Virus record (IMG/VR): IMGVR_UViG_3300021964_000018
Location: 77,039-141,038 of that record
Direction: 5' to 3' (one strand)
Source: a virus
DNA: 64,000 bases
A program made the position numbers and the translations under genes. Of this stretch, positions 1-40,614 are shown in pieces. The notes under the pieces are model-generated. The model saw only the letters and a list, made by a program, of their open reading frames with translations. It did no database searches and had not been told where the DNA came from. Position 1 is the stretch's first letter, and each line of letters begins with the position of its first letter.

Positions 1-576
1 GCAGAAATTAATGAAAAGAAATGGGAGCAACAACCTGTTGTTATTGTTGACTTAGATGATGTGGTAGTAGATTTTAGGGTTTGTTTTGCCAATTGGCTTG
101 AAGATAATTATGGTCTTAAAATAGACGTGGAATCTGAAGAATATTATTTTATTTCAGCATTGTCATCTATTGATGTTAATCCAGAAGCTGTATTTGAAAA
201 ATTTATGAACCAAGGTGGGTTTTCTCGACCAGACATTAATTCTGGTGTGTATCGCTATCTTTGGGATTTAAAAAATCAAGGTTTCTGGATTCAATATTTA
301 ACAGCAAGGCCTGGCGATAACCTTCGATGCGTTTATGATACGTATGATTGGATTGCAAAACATAGCTTACCTTACGACGGTATTGATTTTTCAACAGAAA
401 AATTTAGATGGTGTGCAAGATCTCGTTACTATAAACATATTAAATTTGCAATTGATGATTCACCAAAGCATGCCTTAGAATATGCAAAGCATGGAATAGA
501 ATGTCATGTTCCTGTTAAATCATATAATAAACAAACAATCGGAATAAATAATATTAAACGGTATAAAATATTTTAA
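1..576 (+). CDS. HAD-family 5'(3')-deoxyribonucleotidase-like protein, 5' end outside window
   Basis: Frame 1 is open from base 1 (AEINEKKWEQQPVVIVDLDDVV), giving HAD motif I DxD; later LTAR and IDDSP motifs. Confidence 0.75.
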   Translation, partial: AEINEKKWEQQPVVIVDLDDVVVDFRVCFANWLEDNYGLKIDVESEEYYFISALSSIDVNPEAVFEKFMNQGGFSRPDINSGVYRYLWDLKNQGFWIQYLTARPGDNLRCVYDTYDWIAKHSLPYDGIDFSTEKFRWCARSRYYKHIKFAIDDSPKHALEYAKHGIECHVPVKSYNKQTIGINNIKRYKIF

Positions 577-588
577 ACGGAGAGATAT

Positions 589-813
589 ATGCTAATAATA
601 TTATTATCAACACTTTTGCTAGCTGAAGAACCTAAAGTTGTTTATAAAAAAAGGACAGAAATTGATTTTGAAGCAGTTGACGTTGAAGGTACACTTAAAA
701 AACCAAATCAAGCATTAATAATGGAAAACAATAGAGCAATTTTTAATCCTCTTGTTCAAATTAGAAACTCATGGCATGTTGAAATGATTGGCTCTGTTGA
801 AGACATACAATAA
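589..813 (+). CDS. cglF: CglF/GltF-like adventurous gliding motility protein homolog (secreted)
   Basis: Signal peptide, then YKKRTEIDFEAVDVEGTLKKP...FNPLVQIRNSW, matching the myxobacterial CglF pattern as recalled; SD GGAG. Confidence 0.7.
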   Translation: MLIILLSTLLLAEEPKVVYKKRTEIDFEAVDVEGTLKKPNQALIMENNRAIFNPLVQIRNSWHVEMIGSVEDIQ

Positions 814-27404: not shown

Positions 27405-29024
27405 ATGGAAATCAAAAGAGAAGTAATTTTTAAAGATAGTTTTGAAAGTAAAATAAAAAAAGGAATTGACACACTTTCAAATGCAGTTAAAACAACAATG
27501 GGGCCTAAAGGAAAATTAGTTCTTATTCAGAGAGAAGGACAACACCCAATCGTAACAAAAGATGGCGTAACAGTTGCTAATTCTATCAATCTAGTGGATG
27601 AAGTAGAAAATTTAGGCGTTAAAGTTTTAAAAGAAGCAGCATCTAGAACTGCTGATGAAGCGGGTGACGGAACAACTACCTCAACTGTTTTAGCACAAGC
27701 CATTTTTAACGAAGGCTTAAAAATGAAGTCTGCAGGATTTCAAATTGATTTAATTAAAAGAGGTATTGATTCTTCACTTAAATTAATTAAAGATTATTTA
27801 CTTGAAGCAAAAAAAGATGTAACGAGTAATGAAGAATTAAAGCAAGTTGCAATGATATCTGCAAACGGTGAAGAAGAAATTGCTAATCTTATTGTCGACG
27901 CAATTCAGGCAGCTGGACCTGATGGGTCAGTCATTGTTGAAGAAGCAAAAGGATTTAAATCAGAGCTTAATGTTGTTGATGGTTTTCGATTAGAGCGCGG
28001 ATATTTGTCGCCTTATTTTGTAACAGATAAAAATAAAATGACATGTGAATTTGAACGCCCTTTAATCCTAATTGCCGACAGAGAATTCAATACAATACAC
28101 GACCTTATGAAACCATTGGAAACGGCTTTGGATTCATCCAGGCCTATTCTGATCATCGGAAATGATATCCAAGGTGATGCTCTTCAAGGAATGGTATTAA
28201 ATAAAGTAAAAGGATCGTTGCGGGTTTGTGCAATTAAGTCTCCGGGTTTTGGCGGGTCTAGACATGATATGTTGGTAGATTTGCAGTCAGTTATAGGAGG
28301 TGAAGTAATTACATCTTCGTTTAATATGAGCGAATTTAAAATGGAGCATTTTGGAACGTGTGAAAAATGTATTATTCATAAAAACATGACAATGATTATT
28401 TCAAAAGACACGAAGCAAAAAAATAAAAAGATTGAGGAACGAATCGATTCAATTCGAAGCCGCCTGCTAGAAAGATATTCATTGCAAGATGGTGAAGAAA
28501 ACATTTTAAAGTATCGTTTACAACAATTGTCGGGAGGTATTGCAATATTACGAGTTGGAGCTGCTACAGAATCTGAATTGATTGAGAGGTATGATCGTGT
28601 TGATGACGCATTGCATGCAACGAGGGCAGCTTTGCAAGAAGGAATCTTACCAGGTGGAGGAGTTGCATTAGCAAGAAGTTCAAAAAAGCTTAAGGAATTA
28701 TCGACAACAATTGATAATCCTGATATAAAAGCTGGAGTTGAAATAATGTTAAGAGCTGTTACGTCGCCTTTTAAGCAAATCATAAAAAATGGCAATAAGT
28801 CAGATCAAACGTTATTAGATGCTGTGATTGAAAAAGATAATAATACAGGTTATGATTCTAGAAATAATAAGTTTGGTGATATGTATTCTTTGGGAATTGT
28901 GGATCCACATAAAGTTGTTAGATGTGCAATTGAAAATGCAACGTCTGCAGCAACAATGTTGTTGAGTGTTGAATGTTGTCTTATAAGTTTGAAACAAGAA
29001 AATTCAGAAGATAATTATAATTAA
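27405..29024 (+). CDS. groEL: Group I chaperonin GroEL (divergent, no GGM tail)
   Basis: TMGPKG, TKDGVTVA, GDGTTT, RGYLSPYF, GGGVAL. Confidence 0.95.
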   Translation: MEIKREVIFKDSFESKIKKGIDTLSNAVKTTMGPKGKLVLIQREGQHPIVTKDGVTVANSINLVDEVENLGVKVLKEAASRTADEAGDGTTTSTVLAQAIFNEGLKMKSAGFQIDLIKRGIDSSLKLIKDYLLEAKKDVTSNEELKQVAMISANGEEEIANLIVDAIQAAGPDGSVIVEEAKGFKSELNVVDGFRLERGYLSPYFVTDKNKMTCEFERPLILIADREFNTIHDLMKPLETALDSSRPILIIGNDIQGDALQGMVLNKVKGSLRVCAIKSPGFGGSRHDMLVDLQSVIGGEVITSSFNMSEFKMEHFGTCEKCIIHKNMTMIISKDTKQKNKKIEERIDSIRSRLLERYSLQDGEENILKYRLQQLSGGIAILRVGAATESELIERYDRVDDALHATRAALQEGILPGGGVALARSSKKLKELSTTIDNPDIKAGVEIMLRAVTSPFKQIIKNGNKSDQTLLDAVIEKDNNTGYDSRNNKFGDMYSLGIVDPHKVVRCAIENATSAATMLLSVECCLISLKQENSEDNYN

Positions 29025-29737: not shown

Positions 29738-30484
29738 TTGAGTTATAATACAGCAATTAATAATTATTTTAAAAGTATAAGAAACATTCCTTTACTTACA
29801 AAACAACAAGAAATAGAGCTCGCAAAAAAGATTGAGCAAGGAGACATAAAAGCAAAAAAGAAAATGGTTGAATCAAACTTAAGGCTAGCAATATCAGTTG
29901 CTAAAAAATATGCCAAATACGGATCTAGTTTAGAAGATTTAATTCAAGAATCCAATATTGGTTTAATTAAGGCAGTTGAAAAGTTTGATTGGCGGAAAGG
30001 TTATAAATTTTCAACATATGCAACTTGGTGGATTAAACAAGCAGCAACACGTCATTTAACAGCAAATAATACTTTATTAAAAGTTCCATCTCATACAATT
30101 GCAAATGCAAGTAAAGTTTGGAAACTGATTCAGTCTTATCAAGAAGAATTTAATACAGAGCCTACAATTGAAGAAATTTCCGAGATTCTTAACATACCAG
30201 AAAAACACGTTAAGCAGGCAATTGAATCTTTAAAAACGCGTCATTTAAAATCAATCGACAAACCTGTTAGTGATGAAAACAACAGGACTTTAGGAGATAT
30301 TCTTCCAGATAATGCACCAAGCATTGAAACATTAATGGATCAAGAAATTATCAGACAACAAATAGTTACTGCATTTAAATCTTTATCTAAACGAGAAGAA
30401 ATTGTTTTAAGATTAAGATTTGGAATAACTGATATTGATACTAATAATAATGAAATACATGAAATTAATAACGAGGAGGAATAA
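29738..30484 (+). CDS. RpoD-like sigma-70 factor, regions 1.2-4.1 (lacks 4.2 HTH)
   Basis: [61 protein letters not shown] then stop. Confidence 0.9.
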
Positions 30485-40246: not shown

Positions 40247-40614
40247 GGGCCCGCAAAGGTTTCGACGGGGTAGGAGTAAGTGTTGTGGTGCATGTAGGTA
40301 AGAATCAGCCTTAATTGTTCAAAAATTTTATAAATGCCAATAATAATAAGCATTTCGCTCTTGCAGCTTAACAGCCTTTAGCGACGTCTGAATAGAATAT
40401 GTATGGGTATCTATTTGGGCGTGTAAGACCATACTAATCCTGAGAGTCGTTTTAATGGTGGCGGCTTAGGGGATAATAAAGGAACCAGGTAAAATCCATT
40501 ACGTGTTATTCTAGGGTTCTCTCTTCCAATTTAATACGTATAATTGAGAGTAAACATGTAGGACCACTATTTATTTTATGCCGGACGGGGGTTCGACTCC
40601 CCCCGGGTCCACCA
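40247..40614 (+). ncRNA. ssrA: tmRNA, tag peptide ANNNKHFALAA
   Basis: 5' GGGCCCG..GGTTTCGAC; 3' GGGGGTTCGACTCCCCC CGGGTCCACCA with G3:U pair; tag ORF 40336-40371 ending ALAA-stop. Confidence 0.95.

What the first reader, a model, noticed from the sequence alone, without database searches (positions are those of the whole stretch)
589..813. Phage-encoded CglF/GltF gliding-motility homolog
Seen: signal peptide plus KKRTEIDFEAVDVEGTLKKP..F..LVQIR. Known: this pattern characterises CglF/GltF, an exported component of the myxobacterial Agl-Glt gliding machinery. Inference: the phage may alter host motility or predation, or mask an envelope receptor (superinfection exclusion).
Basis: partly seen in the sequence, partly recalled or inferred. 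Interest (0 to 1): 0.7.

Follow-up and report, generated by a model that had tools for sequence, protein, structure and literature searches.

The report
Phage copy of gliding linker GltF
A large uncultured T4-like phage carries an intact, exported copy of GltF/CglF, the small periplasmic linker of the myxobacterial gliding-type envelope machine. This points to Myxococcota as its hosts and suggests the phage puts its own part into that machine.

Summary
The 74-codon ORF at 589-813 is real. It has a GGAG ribosome site before it and a hairpin-plus-T terminator after it.

**Homology.** It is a true GltF/CglF homolog. NCBIfam NF033764 gives E 3e-11 and 43 bits, below the 90-bit equivalog cut-off. 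Only 3 of 201 sampled Myxococcota genomes pass that cut-off, although 151 have a match. The phage protein aligns without gaps to above-cut-off CglF proteins (41% identity, E 5e-14).

**Context.**
- Bacterial homologs sit between gltE and gltG.
- At least 99 viral contigs carry an orphan copy, and none of the 80 viral loci fetched has another glt gene.
- The record is a genuine myovirus (terminase, portal, capsid, sheath).
- Viral copies keep the family's conserved columns. They are under purifying selection (median dN/dS 0.13).

**Host.** The phage's own tmRNA encodes the tag ANNNKHFALAA. The same tag occurs in two bacterial MAGs among the five GltF-bearing genomes examined, and in only 4 of 401 sampled Myxococcota genomes.

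**Unresolved.** Whether the phage sustains or jams the host machine is untested. This window's copy is a divergent allele (G41Q, R47N, D61S; 12-residue signal peptide).

**Earlier reports.** This scan has already reported phage GltF on at least eight other phage genomes, with the same reading. I found no mention of it in the literature I could search.

The parts
501..528 (+). sigma-70-like promoter candidate (ATGTCA-16-TATAAT) inside the 3' end of the upstream gene
   Evidence: 10 of 12 matches. The number of such sites in the region is no higher than in shuffles, so this is weak.
579..584 (+). ribosome-binding site GGAGAG, 4 nt before the ATG
   Evidence: read directly from the sequence
589..813 (+). 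gltF/cglF-like gene, 74 codons plus stop
589..624 (+). predicted Sec signal peptide (residues 1-12), cleavage after the invariant Ala12
   Evidence: A12 is 100% conserved in viral and bacterial copies; AF2 helix 2-7. Export is inferred.
649..702 (+). most conserved core (residues 21-38, KRTEIDFE..V.VEG..KK). It corresponds to the GltF strand predicted to pair with the TonB-like C-terminal domain of GltG.
   Evidence: invariant T23-E28, G34, K38, P39. The mapping onto PMC11761067 goes through the profile offset and is an inference.
772..807 (+). C-terminal amphipathic helix (residues 62-73). It corresponds to the GltF helix predicted to sit in the GltC crevice.
   Evidence: AF2 helix 62-73; conserved W/F62, E65, M66, S69; PMC11761067
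837..865 (+). intrinsic terminator: 8-bp perfect hairpin followed by a T run
   Evidence: (-8.6 kcal/mol, z -2.6)
40247..40614 (+). phage-encoded tmRNA, tag ANNNKHFALAA. Not part of the gene; it is the host clue that bears on the gene's function.
   Evidence: RF00023, 126.6 bits; same tag in G001 and G004; 4 of 401 Myxococcota genomes

Best explanation
The gene encodes a phage version of GltF (= CglF). GltF is the small, largely unstructured periplasmic linker of the Agl-Glt (gliding/Nfs-type) envelope machine of Myxococcota. The phage most likely captured it from such bacteria and has kept it as a single-gene cassette.

After infection of a Myxococcota host, the protein would be exported by its short signal peptide. 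In the periplasm it would dock where host GltF docks. Its conserved TEIDFE..G..KP strand would pair with the TonB-like C-terminal domain of GltG. Its C-terminal helix would sit in the TPR protein GltC.

The viral copies as a group (this allele deviates at three mid-segment columns) keep both docking elements and every family-invariant residue. I therefore favour a working replacement for a labile host part: it would keep the motor-to-outer-membrane coupling running, or tune it, once host gene expression is shut off. This is analogous to phage psbA.

Shown: homology, phage location, orphan status, purifying selection. Inferred: export, the binding partners, the host, and the direction of the effect.
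For: - Profile match NF033764: E 3.2e-11, protein residues 12-73 on profile positions 27-88.
- Gap-free alignment to CglF proteins above the cut-off: 41% identity, E 5e-14.
- Bacterial relatives in gltD-gltE-gltF-gltG order score only 47.7-59.6 bits themselves.
- 151 of 201 sampled Myxococcota genomes have a match; 3 of 201 exceed the cut-off.
- The contig is a myovirus: TerL, portal, major head protein, two sheath proteins.
- 99 viral contigs carry a relative. None of the 80 viral loci has GltD/E/G neighbours, whereas 49 of 56 bacterial loci do.
- There are no other glt genes in the 141-kb record.
- Viral and bacterial copies conserve the same columns.
- Viral median dN/dS is 0.127.
- The AF2 monomer is non-globular with a C-terminal helix, as described for M. 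xanthus GltF (PMC11761067).
- The gene occupies the same slot next to the ThyX paralogue in five related phages.
- Host clue: the phage tmRNA tag ANNNKHFALAA is identical in G001 and G004 and rare in the phylum, 4 of 401 genomes.
- GltF is needed for gliding and localises to focal adhesions (PMC3169522).
Against: - The score is below the 90-bit equivalog cut-off.
- The signal peptide is unusually short (12 residues, no basic residue).
- This window's allele differs at three nearly invariant columns (G41Q, R47N, D61S) and sits on a long branch. It may bind differently from the other copies.
- No complex prediction or experiment supports the partners. The interface map comes from an AlphaFold model in a paper, transferred by an offset that I inferred.
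- Phage GC is 33%, against 46-72% in GltF-bearing bacteria.
- No CRISPR-spacer-like match was found between 100 kb of the phage and eight candidate host genomes.
- Conservation of both docking elements cannot strictly separate supplying the machine from jamming it.
Confidence: 0.5

Rival explanations
1. Jamming or exclusion. The phage floods the periplasm with the linker. GltG and GltC are then each occupied by separate molecules (an adaptor 'hook effect'), or one partner is simply blocked. This would uncouple the outer-membrane platform from the proton-driven motor. The cell would stop gliding, or a Glt- or TonB-like-energised entry route used by competing phages would be closed (superinfection exclusion).
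For: The gene is a small exported protein on its own promoter-RBS-terminator cassette in a T4-like phage. By general knowledge, small periplasmic or membrane proteins of lytic phages often serve exclusion (T4 Imm and Sp, T5 Llp, Cor). This window's sub-clade has changed three near-invariant mid-segment residues while keeping both docking elements, which would fit a copy that binds without transmitting.
Against: A blocker needs only one docking site, yet the viral copies keep both and all family-invariant residues under strong purifying selection. Nothing shows that any phage uses the Glt machine for entry.
Confidence: 0.25
2. Different target or different host. The conserved strand is a generic peptide that binds TonB-type C-terminal domains. 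The phage would use it against a TonB/TolA-like protein of a host that has no gliding machine.
For: The same core motif is embedded in unrelated larger proteins, including the MuiA family TIGR02231. The phage's 33% GC is far from most GltF-bearing bacteria. Host assignment rests on one tmRNA tag and on gene similarity.
Against: The whole mature protein, including the C-terminal helix, is collinear with GltF from glt clusters. The tmRNA tag matches that of bacterial MAGs which carry a GltF homolog. The CglF profile rang in none of the 14 control genomes at E <= 0.01; at E <= 1 it rang weakly in three archaeal controls.
Confidence: 0.12
3. Passenger gene. A recently picked-up host fragment with no role in infection.
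For: It is small, and the copy has no annotated phage family.
Against: It is present in at least 99 viral contigs. It holds a conserved genomic slot across phages whose copies are only 43-54% identical, and the median dN/dS is 0.13.
Confidence: 0.05

Closest known systems
GltF = CglF of Myxococcus xanthus (MXAN_4868; NCBIfam NF033764)
   Same: Small exported protein. It has the same collinear core (YK..T..DFE..G..KP ... L.IR..F..EM..S...I), a non-globular prediction with a C-terminal helix, and homology at E 3e-11.
   Different: It scores 43 bits against the 90-bit cut-off. It is encoded by a phage as an orphan, not between gltE and gltG. It has a shorter signal peptide and acidic linker, and it differs at G41, R47 and D61.
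GltF orthologs in glt clusters of uncultured aquatic Myxococcota MAGs (e.g. L088, L108, L084, L135)
   Same: 42-49% identical over the alignment. Same length class and same AxA site. They too score below the equivalog cut-off (47.7-59.6 bits for L084 and L135).
   Different: They are always flanked by GltE- and GltG-like genes, and their DNA is 46-72% GC against 33% here.
Phage auxiliary copies of labile host machine parts (cyanophage psbA/D1)
   Same: In concept only: a lytic phage carries one small, high-turnover component of a large host complex. The copy is under purifying selection and is widespread in a marine T4-like lineage.
   Different: Here it is an envelope motility or coupling machine, not metabolism. 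No expression or turnover data exist for this gene.
Periplasmic or membrane superinfection-exclusion proteins of lytic phages (T4 Imm/Sp, T5 Llp, Cor)
   Same: A small exported phage protein that would act on the host envelope.
   Different: No sequence relation. Those are not copies of a host machine component.

Membership tests
CglF/GltF equivalog (NCBIfam NF033764) | Whole-protein score at or above the curated 90-bit cut-off | tested here: not met
   43.1 bits. Only 3 of 201 sampled Myxococcota genomes meet it, and cluster-embedded orthologs score 47.7-59.6 bits.
GltF family in the broad sense | Significant, collinear homology over the mature protein to bona fide CglF | tested here: met
   E 3.2e-11 against profile positions 27-88 of 88. 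Gap-free 41% identity, E 5e-14, to a 91-bit CglF.
GltF family in the broad sense | Small protein with an N-terminal Sec signal peptide (PMC3169522, Table 1) | tested here: inconclusive
   Hydrophobic residues 1-12 end at the invariant AxA alanine. The peptide is only 12 residues with no basic residue, and no signal-peptide predictor was available.
GltF family in the broad sense | Non-globular linker with a C-terminal helix (PMC11761067) | tested here: met
   AF2: pTM 0.21, helices 41-48 and 62-73, the rest extended.
Agl-Glt gliding machinery component | Encoded in the G1 cluster between gltE and gltG | tested here: not met
   Flanked by an NT5C-like nucleotidase and a ThyX paralogue. There are no glt neighbours in any of 80 viral loci and none in the 141-kb record.
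Agl-Glt gliding machinery component | Binds the GltG TonB-like domain and GltC; needed for gliding; localises to focal adhesions | not testable with these tools
The only evidence is that residues in the corresponding segments are conserved.

The most novel reading that the evidence does not exclude
A globally distributed lineage of large T4-like phages infects uncultured aquatic Myxococcota. It uses its own GltF to take over the proton-driven Agl-Glt envelope machine. The purpose would be either to keep infected predatory cells moving and feeding, or to switch the machine off as an entry route. That would be the first case of a virus encoding a structural part of a bacterial gliding motor.
Probability: 0.35. 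Interest if true: 0.75.

Novelty: new variant of a known kind. Interest (0 to 1): 0.55.

Why it matters
- **New kind of phage cargo.** GltF belongs to a machine that only Myxococcota and Bdellovibrionota were reported to possess in full (PMC3169522). A phage copy would mean that viruses manipulate surface motility or envelope force transmission, not just metabolism.
- **Host marker.** It gives a simple marker, GltF plus the tmRNA tag, for assigning hosts to a large group of otherwise hostless big aquatic phages.
- **Test of a predicted interface.** It offers a natural minimal GltF (about 60 residues) for probing the predicted GltG and GltC interfaces.
- **Literature.** The papers I could search, including a 2026 survey of myxophages, do not mention Glt or Cgl genes in phages.
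- **Not new to this scan.** Several follow-ups on other phage genomes reached the same reading.

Tried and rejected
- Pfam and PHROGs give nothing for the protein. A PDB sequence search with the family profile gives only noise, E > 0.2.
- tblastn against 50,697 GenBank phage records gives no match at E <= 1, so no cultured phage carries it.
- The phage record has no partner genes: no TonB_C, no AgmX/PglI tail domain, no GltD/E/G.
- I rejected the claim of several independent transfers. The tree interleaves viral and bacterial rows with at least 5 label changes. However, the alignment has only 62 columns, the window sits on a long branch, and an AU test does not reject a single viral clade (p 0.297). 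Synteny also fits vertical descent within this phage lineage.
- L082, the window's nearest 'bacterial' row, has no recognisable glt neighbour and may be a mis-binned contig. I do not rest the host link on it.
- A spacer hunt compared 100 kb of the phage with eight candidate host genomes. It gave only 69-86% matches in conserved genes (gltF itself, the GroEL and sigma-factor regions, tmRNA) and nothing spacer-like. The remaining 41 kb was not searched.
- The promoter class could not be assigned. The enriched GTATAAT motif is not upstream of this gene.
- A Rosetta-stone check of fused forms found MuiA-family and unannotated large proteins, not GltG or GltC.
- Spanin function was rejected: there is no lipobox cysteine.

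Full report
**Observation.**
The window holds an ORF at 589-813 (+) of 74 codons. An in-frame TAA at 574-576 fixes the start at ATG 589. GGAGAG lies at 579-584. An 8-bp perfect hairpin with a T run follows at 837-865 (-8.6 kcal/mol, z -2.6).

**What the protein is.**
- NCBIfam NF033764 (gliding_CglF) matches at E 3.2e-11 and 43.1 bits, with residues 12-73 on profile positions 27-88 of 88. The curated cut-off is 90 bits.
- Pfam and PHROGs give nothing.
- The cut-off is narrow. Of 201 evenly sampled Myxococcota genomes, 151 have a match at E <= 1e-3 but only 3 exceed 90 bits.
- Two orthologs that lie inside glt clusters, L084 and L135, score 47.7 and 59.6 bits.
- Against proteins that do pass the cut-off, the window protein aligns without gaps over its whole mature part. 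These are L152 (41% identity, E 5e-14) and L150 (30% identity, E 2e-10).
- Homology to GltF/CglF is therefore solid. Equivalog status is not met.

**Bacterial context.**
- A pattern-seeded scan of species-representative genomes returned 56 contigs. Nearly all are 60-72% GC and labelled Myxococcota or Deltaproteobacteria. Several carry implausible record titles such as Klebsiella or Rickettsiales.
- In these contigs the small gene sits in a conserved order: a TPR protein of about 1,070 aa, then a GltE-like TPR lipoprotein, often a second TonB-tail protein, then GltF, then GltG.
- BLAST with the L135 neighbours found GltE-like genes in 44 loci, GltD-like in 41 and GltG-like in 38, out of 56. Only 7 loci had none, mostly short contigs or fused forms.
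- L088 and L108 (46-47% GC) are also GltE-GltF-GltG clusters.

**Viral context.**
- The window is the last 64 kb of a 141,038-bp IMG/VR record that CheckV rates 54% complete.
- The record encodes a large terminase, a portal, a major head protein and two tail-sheath proteins.
- In the window it also encodes a DnaE-type polymerase, GroEL, a helicase and a virion structural protein. Nearly all genes lie on one strand. It is a real myovirus.
- Its nearest cultured relatives by terminase are only about 41% identical: Microcystis phage Mel-JY01 and Flavobacterium phage immuto.
- The gltF-like gene lies between an NT5C-like nucleotidase and a ThyX paralogue.
- In IMG/VR, 99 contigs encode a relative, and 80 were fetched (34-57% GC). 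None of the 80 has a GltD, GltE or GltG neighbour.
- The 141-kb record has no other glt gene and no TonB-type domain.
- No record among 50,697 GenBank phages has a match.
- The slot next to the ThyX paralogue is shared with five related contigs. Between them ThyX is 76-87% identical and GltF 43-54%.

**Conservation.**
- Viral and bacterial proteins are collinear. Each has a signal peptide ending in an invariant alanine of an AxA site, an acidic linker, and a core of about 60 residues.
- Both groups conserve the same columns: Y19, T23-E28, G34, L36, K38, P39, G41, L43, R47, A50, F52-P54, R59, D61, F/W62, E65, M66 and S69.
- Viral pairs have a median dN/dS of 0.127 (154 pairs).
- AlphaFold2 with a 51-sequence alignment gives a non-globular chain (pLDDT 71, pTM 0.21) with helices at 2-7, 41-48 and 62-73.
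- This fits published work. GltF is a signal-peptide protein of the cell envelope found at focal adhesions, and other Glt proteins need it to localise (PMC3169522; PMC4488436).
- An AlphaFold model of the complex shows GltF largely disordered. One strand pairs with the TonB-like C-terminal domain of GltG, and its C-terminal helix lies in a GltC crevice (PMC11761067).
- By the profile offset, those two elements correspond to window residues of about 21-38 and 60-74, the best-conserved parts. This mapping is my inference.

**Peculiarities of this copy.**
- The signal peptide is only 12 residues and has no basic residue. Many other viral copies begin MKY... and are longer.
- The window and its closest relatives differ from nearly invariant residues: G41 to Q, R47 to N, D61 to S. 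The window sits on a long branch.

**Origin.**
The tree interleaves viral and bacterial rows. An AU test does not reject one viral clade (p 0.297), and synteny fits vertical descent. The number and direction of transfers are therefore unresolved.

**Host.**
- The phage carries a tmRNA (40247-40614; RF00023, 126.6 bits) with the tag ANNNKHFALAA.
- I examined five GltF-bearing genomes, mostly those whose GltF is closest to the phage's, and found tmRNAs in three. Two carry the identical tag: G001 (48% GC) and G004 (64% GC, titled Oligoflexia). The third carries ANNNAHFAVAA.
- Two other Myxococcota MAGs have ANNNNHFAARMAA and ANNNNAFAARMAA.
- The exact tag was found in 4 of 401 sampled Myxococcota genomes.
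- I could not census other phyla. A spacer search of 100 kb of phage DNA against eight candidate genomes was negative.
- I put a Myxococcota host at about 70%.

**Mechanism.**
- I favour a working phage GltF that is exported and docks on host GltG and GltC. It would keep or tune motor-to-outer-membrane coupling during infection.
- An unstructured periplasmic linker is plausibly short-lived. All viral copies keep both docking elements, whereas a pure blocker would need only one.
- Jamming by excess adaptor, or exclusion, is the main rival. It fits the altered mid-segment of this allele.

**Prior reports.**
Eight or more earlier follow-ups in this scan reached the same reading on other phage genomes, including the tmRNA-tag host link. 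I saw them after reaching mine. The searchable literature, including a 2026 myxophage survey, does not mention phage glt or cgl genes.

Noticed in passing
window 40247-40614: Phage-encoded full-length tmRNA (RF00023, 126.6 bits) with tag ANNNKHFALAA. The tag is identical to that of two bacterial MAGs that carry a GltF homolog (one titled Myxococcota, one Oligoflexia), and was found in only 4 of 401 sampled Myxococcota genomes.
   Followed up: partly
L132:6849-8867; P0051; L134:5775-8171; P0080; P0086: The GltF core motif also occurs as a module inside much larger bacterial proteins. In L132 and P0051 it sits just before a MuiA-family (TIGR02231) domain. In proteins of 800-1,200 aa it sits near the C-terminus.
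   Followed up: partly
L009, L045, L054, L069, L070 and others (11 viral loci): In one viral clade a GroEL-like gene starts directly after, or slightly overlapping, the gltF-like gene. In this window GroEL is 27 kb away.
   Followed up: no
L086, L096, L097, L110, L112, L115, L122 and others: Contigs of 60-72% GC, most with glt neighbours, have record titles naming Klebsiella pneumoniae, Enterobacterales, Rickettsiales or Alphaproteobacteria. These taxonomic labels look wrong.
   Followed up: no
L082 (G001:C48): The window's nearest 'bacterial' relative is on a 4.4-kb, 48% GC contig. Its neighbouring 589-aa gene matches no NCBIfam family. The gltF core is 78% identical to the window at the DNA level over 81 nt. 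It may be a phage contig binned into the MAG, or a second, non-cluster copy.
   Followed up: partly
G001-G005: Four of the five GltF-bearing bacterial genomes examined hold two CglF-profile matches, which suggests two Glt/Nfs-type systems per genome.
   Followed up: no
window 29935-30034 and 27630-27718: The phage sigma-factor and GroEL regions share 73-76% DNA identity over about 90-100 nt with low-GC Myxococcota MAGs G002 and G003. I had no comparison with other phyla, so this says little about the host.
   Followed up: no
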